Positions 1 to 45,152 of a DNA stretch of 45,390 nt are shown here, piece by piece. The notes beneath the pieces were generated by a model that searched no databases, had not been told where the DNA came from, and worked only from the letters and a program-made list of their open reading frames with translations. Numbering within the stretch: the first letter of the stretch is position 1; the number at the start of each line of letters is the position of its first letter. Made by a program: the position numbers and the translations under genes. Origin of the DNA: a virus (Duplodnaviria; Caudoviricetes); IMG/VR virus record IMGVR_UViG_3300042363_000712, positions 1-45,390 of that record. The stretch is one strand, 5' to 3'.

Positions 1-27
1 GAGGGACCATCCCTCCACCCGCAGGCA
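1..27. repeat. Terminal direct repeat from circular assembly overlap (copy at 45364-45390)
   Basis: gagggaccatccctccacccgcaggca is identical at both ends, which suggests a complete circular or circularly permuted assembly. Confidence 0.9.
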
Positions 28-42
28 CTAGTCCCATTCTGA

Positions 43-468
43 TTAGAACGGAACATCTTCCCCAACCAAGGAAGAAGACATGGCATCCTGAGCAATCTGT
101 TCGGCAGCAGCCACAACAGAAGACTGCTCCGTATTGAACAACATGTTGTGCCCAATAGCAGACGCCGTCAACTCAGCAGTCGTACCACTACGACCAGACG
201 CATCAGTCCATTGACGGATAATGACACTACCCGCCACAACCACAGGCTGACGCATCTTGACACCTTGCATCACATTCGTAGCCAACTGGCCATACGCAGA
301 CACTGTGTACCAAGACGTATCAAAAGTTTCCCATTCATTAGTTGCGGGATTTTCACGCCGATGATTCACAGCAACACGAAACGATGCAACAGGAATACCA
401 GCTTTAGTTACACCCTCACGTGGGTCTGAACCAACCCAACCTTCTATAGCAATATTTACAGTCATCAT
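43..468 (-). CDS. ssb: Single-stranded DNA-binding protein (actinobacterial type)
   Basis: OB-fold motifs (G..GSDP, VASFRVAVNHRR, TSWYTVSAYGQLA, QPVVVAG, ELTASAIGH), acidic DVPF tail, AGGAG RBS. Confidence 0.9.
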   Translation of the reverse strand: MMTVNIAIEGWVGSDPREGVTKAGIPVASFRVAVNHRRENPATNEWETFDTSWYTVSAYGQLATNVMQGVKMRQPVVVAGSVIIRQWTDASGRSGTTAELTASAIGHNMLFNTEQSSVVAAAEQIAQDAMSSSLVGEDVPF

Positions 469-493
469 ATTCTCCTAACTTATTTAGTGAGAG

Positions 494-530
494 GAAAAAC
501 GCCCCTCGCTTGTCGGGGGGGCGTTTTTTC
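494..530. terminator. Rho-independent terminator-like hairpin, bidirectional
   Basis: gaaaaacgcccctcg...cggggggcgttttttc: GC stem flanked by A and T tracts. Confidence 0.65.
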
Positions 531-537
531 TGAAGTC

Positions 538-984
538 TTACTTATTTAACAATTGTTGAATTCTGTATCTATATTTGTTATGCACACTTTCGTTAACCAG
601 GGTCCGACAATCCCAACAAAACAGCCACGGCAAAAATCCATCAGCGGTACGCACAACAAACATTGCGCGCAAGCCATGCCTGTTTTTACGCACATACTGA
701 TTACATAAAGCACAAACACCTTGTTGTTTATTTTCCATTTCATCAGTCGATGCCATAGATGCTACCTCAGCCTCAACCTGCATATTGAAATCAACAGGTA
801 CACATTCTTTCTTGTACCTTTGTTGATGCGCAACACTACAACGGAAACGTTTTACTGTTTCACCAGTCTTGTTGATTTGCTTATATGTGTACACATCAAC
901 AGTTCGGTCACAGGCTGCACAGTAGCCTTGATACGAATTATTTACGGTTATACATATCGTACTTTTGTCAATTTTGTGTTTCAT
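538..984 (-). CDS. Endonuclease VII-like Zn-finger protein, catalytic motif apparently degenerate
   Basis: QQGVCALC...LFCWDC spacing resembles endonuclease VII; N-terminal CAAC...C..H; GAAAGG RBS. Confidence 0.55.
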   Translation of the reverse strand: MKHKIDKSTICITVNNSYQGYCAACDRTVDVYTYKQINKTGETVKRFRCSVAHQQRYKKECVPVDFNMQVEAEVASMASTDEMENKQQGVCALCNQYVRKNRHGLRAMFVVRTADGFLPWLFCWDCRTLVNESVHNKYRYRIQQLLNK

Positions 985-1012
985 AATACCCTTTCATTTT
1001 ATCCTAATAAAC

Positions 1013-1217
1013 CTATACTATTATACTAGTTATGAGCTTACATCCCTGCAACCACCAGAATAGTATAATAGTATATAAGTATAAGTATAAAATGGACACT
1101 TTTTACAGTCCATCATAATTCTGTAAATAGGTTATACAAACGACTATATTTGTAATATAAAACGACCTAAAAAACAGCACCCAATTATCCTTATACATCT
1201 ATACTAATTATACTAGT
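1013..1217. promoter_or_regulatory. AT-rich intergenic region with three TAGTATAAT(T)AGTATA motifs (promoter, operator or unwinding element)
   Basis: Perfect 15-bp inverted pair at 1014-1028 and 1061-1075, near-copy at 1199-1217, each containing TATAAT; TATAAG tandem at ~1075-1090. Confidence 0.55.
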
Positions 1218-1311
1218 CACAAAAACCCACCAAGATAGCTCCACCCAGCCCCCACGTAAGGCGCCAAAAAAAGTGGGGGCAGAGCCGAAAACGACCCCAC
1301 CCCCACACGTC

Positions 1312-1866
1312 CTAAAACAGGACAGGAGCAGTACGAGGAATAAACCTACGTACCAAACGACGAGACTCAGAAACGCCAAACTTCTCAGCCTGCGCAACAA
1401 CATAACGAACCCAACGGTCCAAACCAGACTCAACAGCAATCACAGCAGACGGAACCGTAGAATCCATACCCCAATGCTCAGACTCAGCATCAAAGATACT
1501 CTGCGCCCACCGAAAATTAGCAGCAACAACCCGCTTCTCATCAGTAAACACGTTATCCTCCCACCCAATCTCGACATGCAATGGCATCATCAGTGCCTTA
1601 GCGTAAACAGAGTTACTTTTCTGCTCACGCGCAACACGCAACATGTGACCTGCCATGCGAGACACGCCACGCACCGTACGGCCAACACCATCACGACCTT
1701 TCTCAGAAGGAAGAACAAACTGCACACGAACATTCTCAGGACCGCCATGCGCAGCAACAGTTTCCGCGAAAAAACCCAACATGGTTTTCCGCACAAACTC
1801 ATAAGCCTCATCATCAATAACACGAGACCCAACAACAACACAACGAACAATAGGAACACTAGACAT
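1312..1866 (-). CDS. Hypothetical protein
   Basis: ATG at 1866 overlaps the end of the upstream gene; codon bias matches neighbours; the ORF-track start at 1986 is probably too long. Confidence 0.6.
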   Translation of the reverse strand: MSSVPIVRCVVVGSRVIDDEAYEFVRKTMLGFFAETVAAHGGPENVRVQFVLPSEKGRDGVGRTVRGVSRMAGHMLRVAREQKSNSVYAKALMMPLHVEIGWEDNVFTDEKRVVAANFRWAQSIFDAESEHWGMDSTVPSAVIAVESGLDRWVRYVVAQAEKFGVSESRRLVRRFIPRTAPVLF

Positions 1867-2326
1867 CAGAATCACTCCAATCAACAACCTCAACAGTCTT
1901 TTCATAAACCTTCTGGAGTTCCGCATAGTTATCTTCAACGAAATCACTACCCGAAACTTGAGTAGAAGCAAACAACTCCCACCCACGACGAGTCACGCGC
2001 TCTTCAGCAGACTCGCTAGCACCCGCCATGTCTTCCAACGACAGGACAAAATCTTCATCATTGAGCTTCTGCAAACGCGACATAACATCATCACGCGTAC
2101 ACTCAAAACAGACAACCTCATCAAACTTAAAACATGCAGAAGCAGTCTTGAAATGAAGAATGAAATCAGTAATCAAATTAGGTGTAACAGAGGTCGCATA
2201 AAAAGGCCTCTGATACGCCGGAACAAACTGACTCAACACAACTTCCTCTTGAGTCGCAATAGCCTGAGACACCACAAACCGAAGATGCTCACAATGCATA
2301 CACACATTATTAATAAAGCGGGACAT
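1859..2326 (-). CDS. Hypothetical protein with two CxxC motifs
   Basis: AGGAG RBS; CMHC and CFEC motifs. Confidence 0.7.
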   Translation of the reverse strand: MSRFINNVCMHCEHLRFVVSQAIATQEEVVLSQFVPAYQRPFYATSVTPNLITDFILHFKTASACFKFDEVVCFECTRDDVMSRLQKLNDEDFVLSLEDMAGASESAEERVTRRGWELFASTQVSGSDFVEDNYAELQKVYEKTVEVVDWSDSDV

Positions 2327-2360
2327 AACAACTCCTAACTAAATTATTAAATGCGACGAC

Positions 2361-2390
2361 GGATTGCCGACACACCTGTTCGGGCAATCC
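2361..2390. other. Hairpin ggattgccga...tcgggcaatcc
   Basis: Imperfect inverted repeat upstream of the 2326 gene. Confidence 0.5.
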
Positions 2391-2449
2391 GGCGTGCACC
2401 TGAGCAAAACACCTAACCCGACCATATATATACAGTTTTTAAAAAGTCA

Positions 2450-2634
2450 TCACAAAAAAAGACAAAATGAGAAAAAAAGTACCATAAGAGCGAAGACACG
2501 ACCCGCCAAGGGCGGTCGTCGGTGGTGGTGGCGACGCGGTTTGGTGGCCGTGCTGGCTTTCCTGCTGCGGGAGGGAAGCGGGTGAACGGGGCGCAGCCCT
2601 GTTTTTACGGTGTTTGTTTTTTATGTTTTTGTGA
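2450..2634. other. Candidate replication origin at the strand-skew switch point
   Basis: Hairpin acgacccgcc-aag-ggcggtcgt (2498-2519) with A-tracts on the left and T-tracts on the right; C+A to G+T skew flips here. Confidence 0.5.
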
Positions 2635-2642
2635 GGCACCAT

Positions 2643-2677
2643 AAAAATAGGGGGGCAGCCGAGGCCACCCCCCTATT
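2643..2677 (-). terminator. Rho-independent terminator ending the small-gene array
   Basis: Minus strand GGGGGGTGGC-CTCG-GCTGCCCCCC followed by TATTTTT, just after the stop at 2693. Confidence 0.75.
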
Positions 2678-2692
2678 CGGGTTTGTGTTAAG

Positions 2693-2911
2693 TTATGCGT
2701 TTTCGTATCGTCGGTCTTTGACGATGTGGAAGGTTTCGTTGTTGTCCCAGTAGCCGGTGAATTGTCCGGGTTCTGGGGTGAGGAACTCTGCATGTTTTTG
2801 TGCGAAGAGTTCTGTGGGCCATTCGTATGTTTGGATGGGCCCTGCGGAGTAGTTGAAGATTCCGCTTCGGTTTTGGACTGGCGATTCGTTGTATGGCCAG
2901 TTGTTGTTCAT
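2693..2911 (-). CDS. Small hypothetical protein (72 aa)
   Basis: AAGAAAGG RBS, preceded by a conserved hairpin and followed by a terminator. Confidence 0.75.
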   Translation of the reverse strand: MNNNWPYNESPVQNRSGIFNYSAGPIQTYEWPTELFAQKHAEFLTPEPGQFTGYWDNNETFHIVKDRRYENA

Positions 2912-2934
2912 GATGGTACCTTTCTTGTTAGTTG

Positions 2935-2976
2935 GGGGTGTGTTCCCCGCTTCGTAGAACGGGGGAACACACCTCC
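2935..2976. repeat. Hairpin repeat unit 1 (21-nt identity with 3361-3381)
   Basis: ggggtgtgttccccgcttcgt...ggggaacacac. Confidence 0.85.
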
Positions 2977-2982
2977 TGGTGA

Positions 2983-3339
2983 TTAGTGTGTGATACGTAT
3001 CACACGGTTGGGGATGTTAAGTTTTTTGCAAATGTCTATCATGTGTTTGCTACCCGGGGATTCGCCGTCCCAGAAGATGATGGCGTGGGTGCATTCTTTA
3101 GCCATTTCGGTGTTGCGCAGGTACCCCGCTTTTTTGCCGTGGGTTGCCCAGTCGGCAGGCATTTTGATAACGTTGTATCCGCGTGTTTCGGCGTAGCGTT
3201 CACCGAGTTGGTCTGCGCCTTTAGCTCCGCCTGAGATGATTGTGACGTCTTCTGTGGTGTTAGCTAGGACGTTGTTGAGTTTGGTTTCCATCCAACTGTA
3301 GTCGGTGAGTGTGCGACTTCCAGCAATGATGAGTTTCAT
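2983..3339 (-). CDS. SLOG-superfamily protein (DUF2493 / YspA-related)
   Basis: KLIIAGSR, IISGGAKGADQLGERYA, ADW..HGKKAGYLRN.EMA, FWDGESPGSKHMI; start corrected to the ATG after the AAGAAAGG RBS. Confidence 0.9.
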   Translation of the reverse strand: MKLIIAGSRTLTDYSWMETKLNNVLANTTEDVTIISGGAKGADQLGERYAETRGYNVIKMPADWATHGKKAGYLRNTEMAKECTHAIIFWDGESPGSKHMIDICKKLNIPNRVIRITH

Positions 3340-3360
3340 AACGTTTCCTTTCTTTAGGTT

Positions 3361-3402
3361 GGGGTGTGTTCCCCGCTTCGTTTTAAGGGGGAACACACAC
3401 CC
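3361..3402. repeat. Hairpin repeat unit 2
   Basis: ggggtgtgttccccgcttcgt...ggggaacacac, directly upstream of the SLOG RBS on the minus strand. Confidence 0.85.
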
Positions 3403-3406
3403 ACAG

Positions 3407-3628
3407 TTACTTGTTGTTGGGTACTACGCATCCTGGGTCGTTGGGGTTCATATCTAGGCAGGGATACCCGCCGAAGATACATGGCATACACCTGTTGCCC
3501 GGGTCGCCGTCGCATTCGCAAGGCACTTGGAAGCTAGCGTCACCTGCACAGATGACGCAGTCAGCCCAGGGTCCGAACGGTTCGTGTTCGGCCCATGGTG
3601 CATAAACAGTGTTCTCGAATCTGGACAT
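3407..3628 (-). CDS. Small Cys-rich protein (73 aa)
   Basis: GAGAGGAAAG RBS; CVIC, CEC and CMPC motifs. Confidence 0.7.
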   Translation of the reverse strand: MSRFENTVYAPWAEHEPFGPWADCVICAGDASFQVPCECDGDPGNRCMPCIFGGYPCLDMNPNDPGCVVPNNK

Positions 3629-3648
3629 TACTTTCCTCTCTAGTTGGG

Positions 3649-3674
3649 GTGGGGGTAGCTTTCGCCACCCCCAC
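3649..3674 (-). other. GAAA-tetraloop hairpin upstream of an RBS
   Basis: Minus strand GTGGGGGTGGC-GAAA-GCTACCCCCAC followed by CCCAACTAGAGAGGAAAG. Confidence 0.65.
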
Positions 3675-3682
3675 GTAAACGC

Positions 3683-3835
3683 TTACGGTGCGTCAACCCA
3701 GGTTGGGTAGGGCTCAATAGAGTCCATGAAGTCGCCACTGCATCCATAGCAGTCGCATCCCGCATAGGCCAGTCCCTCCGTCACAGCGAAGTCCTCCTCC
3801 GCTGGGTTGTAGGTACATGTGGTGTTAGCGCTCAT
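3683..3835 (-). CDS. Acidic Cys-containing microprotein (50 aa), absent from the ORF track
   Basis: AAGGAGGTGA RBS then ATG; MSANTTCTYNPAEEDFAVTEGLAYAGCDCYGCSGDFMDSIEPYPTWVDAP*. Confidence 0.75.
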   Translation of the reverse strand: MSANTTCTYNPAEEDFAVTEGLAYAGCDCYGCSGDFMDSIEPYPTWVDAP

Positions 3836-3864
3836 CAGTCACCTCCTTACTACGTCAATCAACG

Positions 3865-3906
3865 AGGGGCAAGCCGCCGCCTCGCGGCAGCGGGCGGCTT
3901 GCCCTT
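3865..3906. other. Strong GC hairpin at the head of the small-gene array
   Basis: aggggcaagccgcc...ggcggcttgccctt. Confidence 0.6.
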
Positions 3907-4058
3907 GAAGCCCGTAACCATGTCGTGTCAGTACGCAACCGAGTCCACCCAAGGGGGTCAACCTCCTTGAAAATTTGGCATCTCAATTTCTGTGTATAAC
4001 CGTTTTTTGTGGTATCTTTAGTCTCATATTGTTTCGCTTATGTGTGGAAGGTGTTTCT

Positions 4059-4256
4059 GTGAGGGCTTTTTGTAAGCAGGATGAGGCGTTGTTGTTGGAG
4101 TTGCAGCATTATGTGACGTTGATGCGGTTGCGGGATTCGGGGCCGCGTTGGGATGTGTCTGCTGGTTTTCCGCGGTGGAGGTTGTTTCATTCTGGCGCTG
4201 GTGTTGTGTTGCGTCGTTTGCGTAAACGGTTTCGGGTGAAAGTTAATTCTGGTTAA
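4059..4256 (+). CDS. Small hypothetical protein
   Basis: GGAAGG RBS before GTG at 4059; stop overlaps the next ATG (TAATG). Confidence 0.5.
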   Translation: MRAFCKQDEALLLELQHYVTLMRLRDSGPRWDVSAGFPRWRLFHSGAGVVLRRLRKRFRVKVNSG

Positions 4257-4924
4257 TGCCTACTATTGAGTCGCATCCTTTGCGGATTGCGCGTATTCGT
4301 GCGGGTTTGTCTGCTGAACGGTTGGGTGGTTTGGCGGGTGTTTCGCGTGGTGCGGTGAATGCTTTGGAGCAGGGGCGTATTAAGCGTCCTCGTGAGGAGT
4401 TGGTTGTGGCGTTGGCTCGAGCTAATGGTGTTGCTCCTGAGTTGTTGTGGGGTTTGTATAATCGTTGGTTGGAGGGCTTTGAGTCGTCGTCTGTTGATGC
4501 GTGGCGTGAGGTGGGGGCGGTGTTGTCCGCTCGGGCTCGGGCGGTGTTGTCGTTGTCTCCTGATGTGGTGTTGCGGTATGGGTCGTTTTCGGCGTGGAGG
4601 CGTGAGATTCATCCGAGTGTGGCGGGTTTTGCGTCGTTGTTGCGTGTTTCGGCTACGTCGTTGCGGAGGTTTGAGCGTGGGGATGTGGGTATGCCGAAGC
4701 CGTTGGTGCGTGCTTTGTTGAATGTGTTGCGGTTGTCTGAGGATTATGTGGGGGCGTTGTTGTCGTTGGAGGGGGCGGACCCTGGTGATGTGGTGCGGGA
4801 GTTTTGGCGTGACCGTAAGCGGGTGCAGCGTCAGCGTGAGCGGTGGCGTGAGTCGGGGGATGTTCGTGGGTTTAGGTCGTTGAAGGACCCTGTGTCGATG
4901 ATTGGTGATGTTGATGTCGTCTGA
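4256..4924 (+). CDS. Transcriptional regulator with two XRE-type HTH domains
   Basis: LRIARIRAGLSAERLGGLAGVSRGAVNALEQG and SVAGFASLLRVSATSLRRFERG. Confidence 0.8.
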   Translation: MPTIESHPLRIARIRAGLSAERLGGLAGVSRGAVNALEQGRIKRPREELVVALARANGVAPELLWGLYNRWLEGFESSSVDAWREVGAVLSARARAVLSLSPDVVLRYGSFSAWRREIHPSVAGFASLLRVSATSLRRFERGDVGMPKPLVRALLNVLRLSEDYVGALLSLEGADPGDVVREFWRDRKRVQRQRERWRESGDVRGFRSLKDPVSMIGDVDVV

Positions 4925-32460: not shown

Positions 32461-33219
32461 ATGGTTAACCCCACGGAACAACCGGATAATACTCAAAAGA
32501 AAAAACTTGAACAAGTTGAGTTGTTTCGGCAAGGTATTGCGGGCAACACACCCGAGAAGCCGCCCGCGTCACGTTACATTAATTGGTTTCATTCGCAAGC
32601 GCCCTATCGTGCGCCCACAGATTTGCACCACCAGTTGGGTAAGAACTCGTGGGATGCTGCCCCTGGCAACCACACCCACGAGTTAGATGAGTTATCGGAT
32701 GTGGCAATAACGACGCCCACATCGGGGCAGGTGTTGCAGTTGTCTGGTGGACAGTGGGTTAACTCGAGCATTGCCGGCTTTACTCCTACGTATCGTGGTC
32801 AGTTGTCGCGCACTACATCCGGCACTGTCACTGGTTTAACTTTAAATACTTATAAAACAACGGGGTTGACGGGGACGCTTGACACAGCAACAACAACCGG
32901 CATGGTATTGGGGACCACTGACACGCTCGCTTTAAAGAATTCTTCAGGAAGTACACGCATTTTTCGTGTGTACGCTTCTGCTGACGCAAAAGCGGGAAAC
33001 AACGAAGTTTTGGGTATCAGACTTGCCGTTAACGGTGTGACAATTGCTGCTAGCGAGTGTCGTGCTTTTGAAGGGTCTGCCCACCAGTTTGCAAAACTTG
33101 TTACTAATTGGATGGTGTCTCTTAACAACGGTGACGAAATAGCTTTGTTTATTGCTAACCACAGCAGCACTACAAACATTGTGATAGACCGTTGTCGAAT
33201 AGTTGCTCTTAGCGTTTAA
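32461..33219 (+). CDS. Isolated putative virion fibre or decoration protein
   Basis: HHQLG...DAAPGNHTH, LDELSDVAI.TP.SGQVL....GQWVN fibre repeat, beta-sandwich-like C-terminus (VSLNNGDEIALF). Confidence 0.6.
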   Translation: MVNPTEQPDNTQKKKLEQVELFRQGIAGNTPEKPPASRYINWFHSQAPYRAPTDLHHQLGKNSWDAAPGNHTHELDELSDVAITTPTSGQVLQLSGGQWVNSSIAGFTPTYRGQLSRTTSGTVTGLTLNTYKTTGLTGTLDTATTTGMVLGTTDTLALKNSSGSTRIFRVYASADAKAGNNEVLGIRLAVNGVTIAASECRAFEGSAHQFAKLVTNWMVSLNNGDEIALFIANHSSTTNIVIDRCRIVALSV

Positions 33220-42525: not shown

Positions 42526-43458
42526 CTAATCTAGTTCTAACAGATACACGGTAGAGAAATCAGTGGCTGACGAATCATGGATAACATCAACTAACTTATC
42601 TCGTAGTTTATCGAACTCCTTGTCTACCTCTGTAATGTCAGACGAAGACTGGTGCCCAATAAAAATAGTTAAACCATCTGCCGGGTCGGCAGTATATGCG
42701 GACTTCATGGCGGTAGTGAAATCGGCCGGATGGCCATACCCACTAGACCACGTTTCTGATTGCTCAGACACAAGAAAACAAACACGACGCAAAAAGTCGC
42801 TATGCCCTACAACAGCAATATCGTTAAGGTCAACCATCTCATCATAATCTTTTAACACAATTTCGACATGAGCAGTATGCGTTGACTCAAACGCTGTAAT
42901 ACGGCAGCGAACATTCTGATTTTCTAACCAATCCACTAACCGTAACAACCTTTTTTGCTTAGCAATAATTGCCTCGCTCTGAACGGTGGCACTAGCCGAC
43001 ACGTTCATAATAAGATTGACTGTTAAGTTAGACGGGTTGCCGTTATGAGCTACACCAAAACATTCTGGTGCACCCTCTAGAAACTTACCAATATCTAAAT
43101 AATCACCTGTAACATCAAACGTTACATCTTTGCCAATAGCTTCTTCTGCCGTGAGCATAAGGTTATCTTCTTTAAAAGCACGCACACTACGAGGATTATT
43201 TTTGAAAACCTCCAACGTTTCAAGCAGCGAACCAAACTGTTGAAACCCGTCACGACCAGAATCGTCAGACGATTTAGCTTGCAGCGGCCGCCAATTAAGT
43301 TGCGAGATGGCAGTCCACAACGCTTTGAGAGAACCAAAGTAACCGACAAGCGTATTGCGTTTAACATATTTTAATACTCGATGGTCAGCAATCTGTTTAC
43401 CAACAAAATAGTTGATACCACGACGCACATTTTCTAACTCATTAACTTTAATAATCAC
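42526..43458 (-). CDS. VWA-like partner of the AAA ATPase
   Basis: DVTGDYLDIGKFLEGAPEC, NVSASA and H.DFLRR; start moved to GTG at 43458 after GAAAGG. Confidence 0.6.
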   Translation of the reverse strand: MIIKVNELENVRRGINYFVGKQIADHRVLKYVKRNTLVGYFGSLKALWTAISQLNWRPLQAKSSDDSGRDGFQQFGSLLETLEVFKNNPRSVRAFKEDNLMLTAEEAIGKDVTFDVTGDYLDIGKFLEGAPECFGVAHNGNPSNLTVNLIMNVSASATVQSEAIIAKQKRLLRLVDWLENQNVRCRITAFESTHTAHVEIVLKDYDEMVDLNDIAVVGHSDFLRRVCFLVSEQSETWSSGYGHPADFTTAMKSAYTADPADGLTIFIGHQSSSDITEVDKEFDKLRDKLVDVIHDSSATDFSTVYLLELD

Positions 43459-43484
43459 AACAACACCTTTCATATAAATGATGA

Positions 43485-43793
43485 CACCGGCTGGCAGCAT
43501 GCCTGTTCTGACATACTGACCAGCCGGTGCGGCAACAACCAAAACAAACCTAGGCTAGAGGAACTTGCTAACACGTTCCGTCACCCCATTTGTCGTTTAT
43601 TGCATGCATTACAGAAAGCACAAAGGGTTTCTGCAACTTTGCTCACCGAAGCTAGTGGTACATAGCGAGTGTGTTATCCAAGACATAACAAAGGTTTGTT
43701 TCCATCGAACGGCGGCACTATCGAACACATCCCGCACCATAATCGGTTTACAACCTGGGTAGCGCAATTTCTGGACAACAGTGCTTTCTGTTC
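43485..43793 (-). ncRNA. Candidate structured RNA (unassigned)
   Basis: Three long-range complementary pairs plus local hairpins in a 335-nt intergenic gap. Confidence 0.4.
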
Positions 43794-45152
43794 TTATTCA
43801 ATTAAAAATGGGACTTCAGGCAAACTATCTTGATTTTCCCGAAGATACTTATTCATACTTGGACGGAAATCCCAGTCATTATGGAAAAGCTGAAACACTA
43901 AACCATTACGAACTTCATAAAGATTAGTGTCATCATCATTTTTAGTAACCAGATACAACACTAACGATTTAAGTTTAGTGTCCTCATCTGTATGATTAAG
44001 CAACTGGTCAACACTGGTTTTAATGTTGTCATCAAGTTTTTCGAAATCCACACGCAAACCACGCCGCTGCTCTAACGTCAACAACACATTCCATGCAGCT
44101 GGCACACTGTCACAAGCATCATACGTTTCTGCCAACTTGTTCCAATTACTAGCATTACTGTTATCCGTAAGCAACTTGTCAATAATGTCCAAATTGTTGC
44201 GCCAACGAGTATGACACTCAACATGCAAATCACGTTTATGTTCAGCACCAAACTGATGCAATAACGCCATATGCAACACATCATTGAAATCCATACCATG
44301 AGATAGCAACAAAGAGCCCCGCTGTGTAGCTCGAGGCGACACAACAACACGCAACTCTTGGTCGTTAACAAACGAACGAACATAACGCACAATGTCTAGC
44401 CATGCTGCACCATATTTACCTACAGCAAGACTCTGTTCGAGGTTTTCGTCAATATCCCACGACAACACAACAAAACGGTCCAACGTTGCAGCATCCAACT
44501 GATTACGACCAACATATTGGCGGGAAGCACCCAAACCAAACGTGTTAGCAGACGCAACCATGCGGAACTTGTCATGTCTACGAATCATTCCATCTGGGAA
44601 CGACATGTAATTGTTAGCCAAAGCAGCATTGAGCTGGATAAGAACATTACTGTTACCAGCATCAATTTCGTCTAACAAAAACAACCCACCATGCTCATAC
44701 GCGTTACGAAACACGGTACGCACATAGTTTTGCATAGCATCCATGTAGCCAATAATGTCTGACTTAGATGTTTGAGCACCAACACTCATGGCATAAAAGT
44801 CAAGACCCATAGCATTTGCGACTTGCTCTGCTGCATGCGATTTGCCAGTACCAGCAGGACCCACCAACATCACAGGCGTATTAGCATGCACAACTCTAAT
44901 CAAATGCTCAAAGTTTTTATGCTGAATTCCATCCAAGGTTGGGCTAACAAAATCGTCATAAACAATATGAATTGGACGCGACTGATTAACAGCCTCTTCC
45001 AACTTTTTAACTTTTTGTGCAACACGACGGTCAATCTTAGCTGTCACAGATTTTAGAACATCCTCACTAATCTGGTCAAACATAGATAGCACAGCATCCG
45101 CTTTAGTCTTGGTTTGCGTAGTACGCGTTACCTTAACTGTCTCCACTGTCAT
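43794..45152 (-). CDS. AAA+ ATPase (MoxR/CobS-like)
   Basis: GPAGTGKS, LLDEIDAG, ASANTFG and RNQLDAATLDRF. Confidence 0.9.
   Translation of the reverse strand: MTVETVKVTRTTQTKTKADAVLSMFDQISEDVLKSVTAKIDRRVAQKVKKLEEAVNQSRPIHIVYDDFVSPTLDGIQHKNFEHLIRVVHANTPVMLVGPAGTGKSHAAEQVANAMGLDFYAMSVGAQTSKSDIIGYMDAMQNYVRTVFRNAYEHGGLFLLDEIDAGNSNVLIQLNAALANNYMSFPDGMIRRHDKFRMVASANTFGLGASRQYVGRNQLDAATLDRFVVLSWDIDENLEQSLAVGKYGAAWLDIVRYVRSFVNDQELRVVVSPRATQRGSLLLSHGMDFNDVLHMALLHQFGAEHKRDLHVECHTRWRNNLDIIDKLLTDNSNASNWNKLAETYDACDSVPAAWNVLLTLEQRRGLRVDFEKLDDNIKTSVDQLLNHTDEDTKLKSLVLYLVTKNDDDTNLYEVRNGLVFQLFHNDWDFRPSMNKYLRENQDSLPEVPFLIE

What the first reader, a model, noticed from the sequence alone, without database searches (positions are those of the whole stretch)
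43459..43793. Candidate novel structured RNA (pseudoknot or conformational switch) between the AAA and VWA-like genes
Seen on the minus-strand RNA, in order: A=ACAGAAAGCAC (43791-43781), B=GGUGCGG (43738-43732), C=AAACAAACCU (43701-43692), A'=GUGCUUUCUGU (43621-43611), C'=AGGUUUGUUU (43551-43542), B'=CCGCACC (43532-43526). A/A' (11 bp), C/C' (10 bp) and B/B' (7 bp) are perfect complements, and A/A' crosses the nested B-C/C'-B' helices. B' overlaps the 5' arm of the hairpin CACCGGCUGG...CCAGCCGGUG (43529-43485) just upstream of the VWA RBS. Local hairpins (UGUUAU...AUAACA, GGAAC...GUUCC) and two GUUCGAU T-loop-like motifs are also present. A 335-nt gap is anomalous in this dense operon. Inference: a large pseudoknotted ncRNA or a riboswitch/attenuator controlling the downstream replication operon.
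Basis: partly seen in the sequence, partly recalled or inferred. Interest (0 to 1): 0.78.

Follow-up and report, generated by a model that had tools for sequence, protein, structure and literature searches.

The report
New folded RNA in freshwater phages
The 335-base gap between an ATPase gene and its partner gene in a lake phage carries an RNA fold whose base pairing is kept in related phages and matched no family in the Rfam RNA library; it is likely a new small RNA gene cut out of the phage's early messenger, but neither its expression nor its job has been shown.

Summary
The three complements exist, but the proposed pseudoknot or switch does not hold. In two homologous gaps (L070, L071; about 60-63% identical to the window) A/A' and B/B' break. 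C/C' is kept by compensatory changes.

A nested 11-helix fold is supported instead: 99% of cells paired, 16 of 76 pairs changed on both sides, 0 of 500 shuffles as high (three sequences only). It has a 5' hairpin, a long rod closed by C/C', a short hairpin and a 20-bp 3' hairpin. It folds on the mRNA strand, starts at the ATPase stop codon and ends 8 nt before the vWA ribosome-binding site. The only conserved crossing helix is new: loop GAACA with bulge UGUUC (invariant, unproven).

Rfam gives no credible match, and there is no conserved ORF. A distant phage (L001) likely keeps the 5' domain. More distant AAA-vWA pairs have small ORFs or almost nothing at this site.

Best reading (0.42): a new ~315-nt non-coding RNA gene, co-transcribed and processed, acting as a protein-binding decoy or scaffold. 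Main rival: a cis element tuning AAA:vWA output (0.28). Expression is untested.

The parts
43794..45152 (-). MoxR/CobS-like AAA+ ATPase gene (452 aa); its stop codon abuts the RNA
   Evidence: Pfam AAA_5 E 1e-18; phrog_249 E 3.5e-59
43480..43793 (-). Whole conserved structured RNA, about 315 nt, 11 supported helices
   Evidence: folds -120 kcal/mol on this strand against -91 on the other; 13-23 G-U and 0 A-C pairs among 76
43707..43793 (-). Domain 1: long 5' hairpin. P1a 43793-90/43710-07, P1b 43784-76/43723-15, UC/UU 2x2 loop, CA/UG, GAA bulge, P2 43767-60/43739-32, P3 43755-53/43747-45. Invariant GUUGUCCAGAA and GUGUUC
   Evidence: helices 1-4, 100% of cells paired, two-sided changes in each; invariant runs; same layout in L001 with a 21-nt insert
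43703..43706 (-). P0 5' arm; pairs with 43483-43480 and closes a four-way junction
   Evidence: 2 of 4 pairs changed on both sides, all cells paired; but probability 0.0 in the window's own ensemble
43541..43702 (-). Domain 2: rod closed by C/C' (43702-43692 with 43551-43541), with invariant GCUAUGUAC, AGCUUCG (changed in lake strains) and GUGACG, and apical hairpin 43637-43608 that holds A'
   Evidence: C/C' is a 15-20 bp helix in L070 and L071; helices 6-9; the interior is only about 55% identical between homologues and its inner pairings are uncertain
43531..43540 (-). Short hairpin GGU-NNNN-GCC at the junction
   Evidence: 3 invariant pairs; no covariation
43484..43530 (-). Domain 3: 20-bp hairpin with invariant loop AGAACA (43509-43504)
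   Evidence: 100% of cells paired, 3 pairs with two-sided and 5 with one-sided change; ensemble probability 0.98
43723..43727 (-). UGUUC in domain 1; candidate pseudoknot partner of GAACA (43508-43504)
   Evidence: the only conserved non-nested all-Watson-Crick helix of 5 bp; column-shuffled mean 0.13; invariant, so no covariation
43464..43471 (-). Shine-Dalgarno GAAAGGUG of the vWA gene, outside the conserved fold
   Evidence: sequence; unpaired probability 0.7-0.8 in L070, 0.5-0.8 in L071, 0.1-0.75 in the window
42526..43458 (-). DUF7192 vWA-fold gene (310 aa from GTG 43458)
   Evidence: PF23822 E 1.4e-15; homologues start MIIKV/MLIKV; model residues 145-300 match vWA domains, e.g. NorD VWA 9qh8_G Z 6.5, rmsd 6.0, 160 aligned

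Best explanation
The gap carries a conserved three-domain RNA fold of about 315 nt that is likely a free-standing non-coding RNA gene of the phage's early region: it would be transcribed inside the ATPase-vWA messenger, cut out at its long helices by host nucleases, and act as a compact decoy or scaffold that binds a protein through its invariant loops. Shown: the fold, its strand, its boundaries, its conservation, and the lack of a conserved ORF. Inferred: co-transcription (no promoter consensus in or just before the gap, no U-tail terminator); compaction by the GAACA/UGUUC loop-bulge pairing; processing; action in trans; and the partner, for which the adjacent AAA-vWA pair or a host protein are candidates.
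For: Fold:
- Nested model on three homologues: 99.1% of 228 cells paired, 16 of 76 pairs changed on both sides, 0 of 500 shuffles as high; slid controls 32-51% paired.
- Each homologue folds better than all of 100 shuffles (z -4.0, -5.0, -2.6).
- The sense strand is 30-63 kcal/mol more stable than the antisense strand.
- Invariant runs of 6-14 nt sit at loops and junctions, while fourfold-degenerate sites of the vWA gene are only 34 of 61 and 26 of 54 identical.
- No ORF is conserved, and the gaps are 335, 340 and 337 nt, so frames differ.

Self-contained module:
- The fold starts at the first base after the AAA stop and closes 8 nt before the Shine-Dalgarno, leaving it outside the conserved fold.
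- The site is an accessory slot. In 6 of 6 more distant AAA-vWA loci examined (L007, L008, L009, L011, L015, L072) it holds small ORFs or at most about 100 nt. Two cultured Rhizobium phages have two small ORFs there. The pair is therefore expressed without this RNA elsewhere.
- L001 (vWA 48% identical) keeps domain 1 element by element, with G-C to A-U and changed P2 pairs plus a 21-nt insert (motif pair in 2 of 2000 shuffles), inside a 460-nt gap.
- Phage-borne large ncRNAs of unknown function are established (GOLLD, ROOL; PMC12286853, passages).
Against: - No transcript data were seen, so expression, ends and processing are unshown.
- Only three alignable sequences, two from one assembly. 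The structure was derived from them, and the shuffle control ignores relatedness.
- The RNA was found only at this one gene position, directly upstream of the vWA gene, which fits a cis element equally well.
- In the window's own ensemble P0 (0.0) and the UGUAC/GUGACG helix (0.0075) do not form; forcing them with C/C' costs 14 kcal/mol. Strain changes in that part are not cleanly compensatory.
- The covariance models do not find the gaps of L001 or L006, and pairwise alignment z is 1.2 or less. The L001 gap folds at z -1.4 and the L006 gap at z -0.65. The motif tolerance used for L001 was set after seeing it.
- The pseudoknot rests on five invariant pairs (about 0.13 expected by chance).
Confidence: 0.42

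Rival explanations
1. A cis-acting mRNA element: a processing site and 3'-exonuclease barrier or polarity element that stabilises the AAA cistron and lowers vWA and downstream output, matching a ring of six AAA subunits to less vWA partner.
For: Always in the sense strand between the same two genes (5 of 5 close-clade loci with both genes in view have a 310-460 nt gap). 15-21 bp helices are plausible double-strand nuclease sites (inference). CobS works as a closed hexamer with the CobT VWA domain at its pore (10.64898/2026.10.09.757910, abstract).
Against: Relatives express the pair without any such element. One hairpin would do this job; a four-way junction with invariant internal loops seems more than it needs (inference).
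Confidence: 0.28
2. A nascent-RNA antitermination element (put, EAR or conAn2 type) that makes RNA polymerase read through the long minus-strand run of replication and virion genes.
For: It lies near the head of a run of same-strand genes of more than 30 kb. conAn2 is a 383-bp intergenic region that exerts antitermination (PMC8191782, abstract and section 22).
Against: Terminator-like sites downstream are barely above chance (29 found against 22.0 +/- 3.8 in shuffles). The clear excess lies upstream (16 against 4.2). No sequence likeness to such elements was found in Rfam.
Confidence: 0.1
3. A riboswitch or conformational switch controlling vWA translation or termination, for example a cobalamin-type sensor given the CobS/CobT-like genes.
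For: Invariant loops; position 5' of an RBS; loop AACAG can pair with the UUGUU spacer before the start codon in all three homologues (5 bp with one G-U). The 3' part loosely recalls a B12 box (from memory).
Against: A/A' and B/B' are not conserved. No Rfam riboswitch match even at E up to 10. The B12-box-like bases lie in a covarying hairpin. No U-tail terminator at the 3' end. The Shine-Dalgarno is mostly free in homologues.
Confidence: 0.08
4. A decayed or selfish insert (remnant of an intron or other mobile RNA) whose pairing is kept only so that the messenger stays harmless.
For: Optional at this site; gap lengths of 310-460 nt; the L006 gap shows no likeness and no folding signal.
Against: Two-sided changes in 7 of 11 helices and invariant loops among homologues about 60% identical. 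No intron family match. The vWA gene has its own RBS and the frames differ, so no splice fusion.
Confidence: 0.06

Closest known systems
ROOL and GOLLD large ornate RNAs of phages and prophages (PMC5737381, PMC12286853; passages read)
   Same: Phage-borne, non-coding, multi-junction fold defined by covariation, few invariant bases, possible kissing contact, function unknown.
   Different: About 315 nt against an average of 581 nt (ROOL) and over 800 nt for many GOLLD; one junction and at most one pseudoknot against six junctions and three pseudoknots (ROOL); no tRNA gene in this genome; no Rfam match.
conAn2 antitermination RNA of pLS20 (PMC8191782) and HK022 put RNA (PMC9378689, search listing only)
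   Same: Intergenic sense-strand RNA of a few hundred bases near the head of a long operon of a mobile element, directly after a gene's stop codon.
   Different: No ConAn1-like partner was identified; no excess of downstream terminators; no sequence match; activity untested.
Phage cobST-like AAA+/vWA gene pair (PMC8651126, passages; phrog_249)
   Same: The flanking genes are a MoxR/CobS-like ATPase and a vWA-fold protein, a pair widespread in tailed viruses.
   Different: The vWA partner is the short DUF7192 type with a degenerate MIDAS-like motif (NVSAS in the window). No RNA between such genes was found in the papers searched.
Cobalamin riboswitch
   Same: Lies upstream of a CobT-like gene; loose likeness of GCCGCAC and GUCAGAA to the B12 box (recalled).
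   Different: No Rfam match; the like bases are in a covarying hairpin; the core four-way junction motifs were not seen.

Membership tests
Any Rfam 15 family (4227 models) | Score at or above the family's gathering threshold | tested here: not met
   0 matches in the window at gathering; at E up to 10 only two plus-strand chance hits of 20 and 14 bits; 0 at E up to 1 in L070, L071, L006, L002, L005
ROOL / GOLLD | Length of about 580 nt or more with six multistem junctions and several pseudoknots | tested here: not met
   315 nt, one four-way junction, one candidate pseudoknot; sizes from PMC5737381 and PMC12286853
ROOL / GOLLD | Assembly into RNA-only multimers | not testable with these tools
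   needs mass photometry or cryo-EM
tRNA / tmRNA | Cloverleaf or tRNA-like domain with tag frame | tested here: not met
   ARAGORN found 0 genes in the window, L001, L002 and L004; the GUUCGAU motifs lie in helices
Cobalamin riboswitch | Match to the Rfam cobalamin models; single-stranded B12 box | tested here: not met
   the like bases are paired in domain 3
Riboswitch / attenuator (kind) | Conserved mutually exclusive fold that hides the RBS or forms a terminator | tested here: inconclusive
   A/A' and B/B' not conserved; no U-tail terminator; only an invariant 5-bp loop-spacer option
Riboswitch / attenuator (kind) | Ligand-dependent structural change | not testable with these tools
   needs probing
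Group I / group II intron | Catalytic core (P7 guanosine site, or domain V) and interruption of a gene | tested here: not met
   no Rfam intron match; both genes are whole, with their own stop and RBS; gap lengths differ modulo 3; core motifs compared by eye from memory only
RNA antitermination elements (put, EAR, conAn2) | Confers read-through of downstream terminators in cis | not testable with these tools
   terminator count near chance is only indirect
Small protein-coding gene | ORF conserved among homologues | tested here: not met
   six-frame translations of three gaps share no open frame; frame-shifting indels
vWA domain (downstream gene) | Rossmann-like vWA fold | tested here: met
   model pLDDT 78.7; the 50 listed matches are dominated by vWA domains, best Z 7.1, rmsd 3.6, 135 aligned; Z under 8 is middling

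The most novel reading that the evidence does not exclude
The RNA is the nucleic-acid partner of the flanking phage AAA+/vWA motor: a three-part ribonucleoprotein (ATPase ring, vWA adaptor, folded RNA held by a loop-bulge kiss) made early in infection to remodel or decoy a host target. It would be the first RNA component of a MoxR-vWA machine.
Probability: 0.1. Interest if true: 0.85.

Novelty: new member of a known kind. Interest (0 to 1): 0.55.

Why it matters
Large structured RNAs of unknown function are rare and have often turned out to have unusual biochemistry. This one costs a compact 45-kb phage over 300 bases, keeps its shape while its sequence drifts by 40%, and sits inside the widespread but unexplained phage AAA+/vWA (cobST-like) gene pair. 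At about 315 nt it is easy to transcribe, probe and image. It gives a direct test of whether RNA has a part in what these phage ATPase pairs do, or in how their subunits are dosed.

Tried and rejected
Rejected readings:
- A small ORF, an N-terminal extension of vWA (frames differ between the window and L071/P0005), or an AAA-vWA fusion.
- tRNA/tmRNA. RNase P, SRP, T-box, group I/II intron, Y RNA and cobalamin riboswitch were compared by Rfam and by eye from memory; none fits. No Ro60 chain is among the 50 fold matches listed, which does not exclude kinship.

Searches that led nowhere:
- Motif scans of viral contigs: 47 loci for the domain-3 motif, best 20 bits against 87-96 for true members; 1 locus each, both inside or antisense to other sequence and unrelated; 13 loci, of which one is the L001 gap and the other 12 look like chance, 10 of them over long frames.
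- blastn of the gap against 50,697 phage records: no match.
- The vWA protein alone found no relative in viral contigs. The one metagenome scan, run with the AAA protein alone, gave 2 loci, so most of the 58 vWA relatives could not be read as DNA.
- Sequencing runs: no RNA holder listed among 24 runs; this says nothing about expression.
- Promoter scan at chance level (9 found against 8.2).
- Sequence search of solved structures with the vWA profile: best E 0.14. The protein atlas gave only DUF7192 clusters.
- The first structure string given for my model had three helices out of register (85.3% paired); it was corrected from the RNAalifold columns.

Literature: searches gave no description of this RNA. 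Six motifs were not found in the supplements of PMC10690425, but 3 of 6 held files were not searched and 3 more were unreadable. A piece of this RNA could be among those 10,006 candidates (29-151 nt for the IMG/VR set).

Full report
Setting. The window is a complete 45,390-base virus record with direct terminal repeats, held by lake and freshwater DNA runs (23 of 24 listed rows). It encodes a terminase, portal, major capsid protein, primase, helicase and RuvC. Its primase is closest, at about 35% identity, to those of mycobacteriophages, so an actinobacterial host is a guess. The finding lies on the minus strand between a MoxR/CobS-like AAA+ gene (43794-45152) and a DUF7192 gene. That gene most likely starts at GTG 43458 behind GAAAGGUG, because homologues begin MIIKV or MLIKV. 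Its predicted structure has a vWA fold at residues 145-300.

The observation. Three perfect helices of at least 10 bp occur where 0 of 500 shuffles give two, and the region folds at z -4.0. But the ensemble gives A/A' a probability of 0.0009 and B/B' 0.0, against 0.72-0.99 for local helices that use the same bases. Forcing A/A' costs 7 kcal/mol, and forcing B/B' with C/C' costs 16.

Homologues. An alignment of 44 vWA proteins found two closer loci, L070 and L071, in genome contigs, and L001/L005 and L006 in viral contigs. The L070 and L071 gaps align with the window at 197 of 312 and 187 of 309 identical columns. In them A/A' pairs 7 of 11 and 6 of 11 positions and B/B' 5 of 7. C/C' is a 15-20 bp helix of different sequence in both.

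A nested model of 11 helices reaches 99.1% of 228 cells, with 16 of 76 pairs changed on both sides. None of 500 shuffles was as high, and slid controls gave 32-51%. This model was derived from the same three sequences, two of which come from one assembly, so the figures describe the fit and are not a probability. The fold is strand-specific: 13-23 G-U and no A-C pairs, and the mRNA strand is 30-63 kcal/mol more stable. Lake strains differ at 14-16 listed positions of the gap. These lie in the domain-2 interior and loops; one turns a U-G pair of P1b into U-A and one breaks the end pair of A/A'. None is listed in domain 3 or in the first 60 nt (two rows were not shown).

Anatomy. Domain 1 (43793-43707) is a long hairpin with invariant GUUGUCCAGAA and GUGUUC around a UC/UU loop and a GAA bulge. 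Helix P0 (43706-43703 with 43483-43480) closes a four-way junction. That junction carries domain 2 (rod closed by C/C', 43702-43541), a 3-bp hairpin, and domain 3 (20-bp hairpin, loop AGAACA). P0 and the invariant UGUAC/GUGACG helix are supported by the alignment but do not form in the window's own ensemble, so the domain-2 interior is uncertain. A search of all helices of 5 bp or more kept in the three sequences gave one crossing helix with five Watson-Crick columns, UGUUC (43727-43723) with GAACA (43508-43504). Column shuffles gave 0.13 on average. It is invariant and so only a candidate pseudoknot. The two GUUCGAU motifs lie in helices and are not T-loops. No ORF is conserved, and the gaps are 335, 340 and 337 nt.

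Wider family. L001 comes from a phage with a 65% identical primase and a 48% identical vWA protein, and has a gap of about 460 nt. Read by hand it keeps domain 1: P1b 6 of 6, CA/UG 2 of 2, P2 5 of 5, P3 3 of 3 pairs, with a 21-nt insert. The motif pair occurs in 2 of 2000 shuffles (tolerance chosen after seeing it). Against this, my covariance models do not detect it, pairwise alignment is at chance level, and its folding z is -1.4. L006 has a 310-nt gap without the motif and without folding signal. In 6 of 6 more distant AAA-vWA loci examined the site holds small ORFs or at most about 100 nt (L017 is cut, and L081's next gene was not confirmed as vWA, so both were left out). Two cultured Rhizobium phages have two small ORFs there, and mycobacteriophage UPIE has seven genes between the pair.

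How it most likely works. Shown: a conserved sense-strand fold that fills the gap from the AAA stop codon to 8 nt before the next Shine-Dalgarno, at a site that other phages fill with accessory ORFs or leave empty. Inferred: it is transcribed with the early messenger, since no promoter consensus lies in or just before the gap and no U-tail terminator ends it. Its long helices would let host nucleases release it, and its invariant loops would bind a protein. I put 0.42 on such a discrete RNA acting as a decoy or scaffold. I put 0.28 on a cis processing or stability element that doses AAA against vWA (CobS acts as a hexamer around the CobT vWA domain; 10.64898/2026.10.09.757910, abstract). Antitermination gets 0.10 (conAn2 analogy, PMC8191782, abstract and section 22; downstream terminators near chance), a riboswitch-like switch 0.08, and a relic 0.06. 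That a selected RNA structure exists I put above 0.9.

Comparison with what is known. Rfam 15 gives no credible match for the window or its homologues, ARAGORN none, and cultured phages no DNA match. In kind it resembles the orphan phage RNAs ROOL and GOLLD (PMC5737381 and PMC12286853, passages) but is about half the size of ROOL and simpler, so it is not a member. The flanking pair is the known phage cobST-like cluster (PMC8651126, passages). Seven paper searches gave no account of this RNA. Of PMC10690425 I read the first of five parts. Its supplements were only partly searchable, so overlap with its candidates is not excluded. Earlier AI notes of this scan report other uncatalogued RNAs beside AAA-vWA pairs in other phages. 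I did not test them, and they are leads only.

Verdict. It is a new family within a known kind (orphan structured phage RNAs). Function and expression are untested. Interest 0.55.

Noticed in passing
window 2928-2972 and 3354-3398 (a looser third hairpin near 3650-3675): Two 87%-identical copies of a 45-nt hairpin between small early genes (D9 and I2). Its GTGTTCCCC...GGGGAAC core recalls the start of a type I-E CRISPR repeat (from memory); it may be a processing site or a repeat mimic.
   Followed up: no
window 985-1311: AT-rich non-coding gap with a 34-bp imperfect inverted repeat (995-1028 / 1061-1094), two promoter-like sites and a strong terminator at 1306-1273: candidate early promoter or origin.
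   Followed up: no
window 1-4400: Terminator-like hairpins are in clear excess here (16 against 4.2 +/- 2.0 in shuffles), and the minus strand changes from A/C-rich to G/T-rich near 2500 (by eye).
   Followed up: no
L001 2846-3303: 460-nt gap with about a dozen hairpins, a GCAA-tetraloop rod, and a possible 7-bp pairing between a loop GUGUCAG and CUGACAU (seen by eye). Hairpin loops holding AAACA (3136) and GAACG (3227) could be partners of UGUUU and CGUUC.
   Followed up: partly
L006 2194-2503: 310-nt AAA-vWA gap with a 16-bp long-range helix ending just before the RBS. It shares a 9-nt word with the cut-off gap of L002 but not the domain-1 core.
   Followed up: partly
window 32461-33219 (+): A lone plus-strand tail-fibre-like gene (phrog_24754) interrupts the minus-strand run between the primase region and RuvC.
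   Followed up: no
L070, L071 (G001): Two 4.2-kb contigs of this phage clade sit in an assembly titled as a Bacilli MAG; likely mis-binned phage DNA.
   Followed up: no
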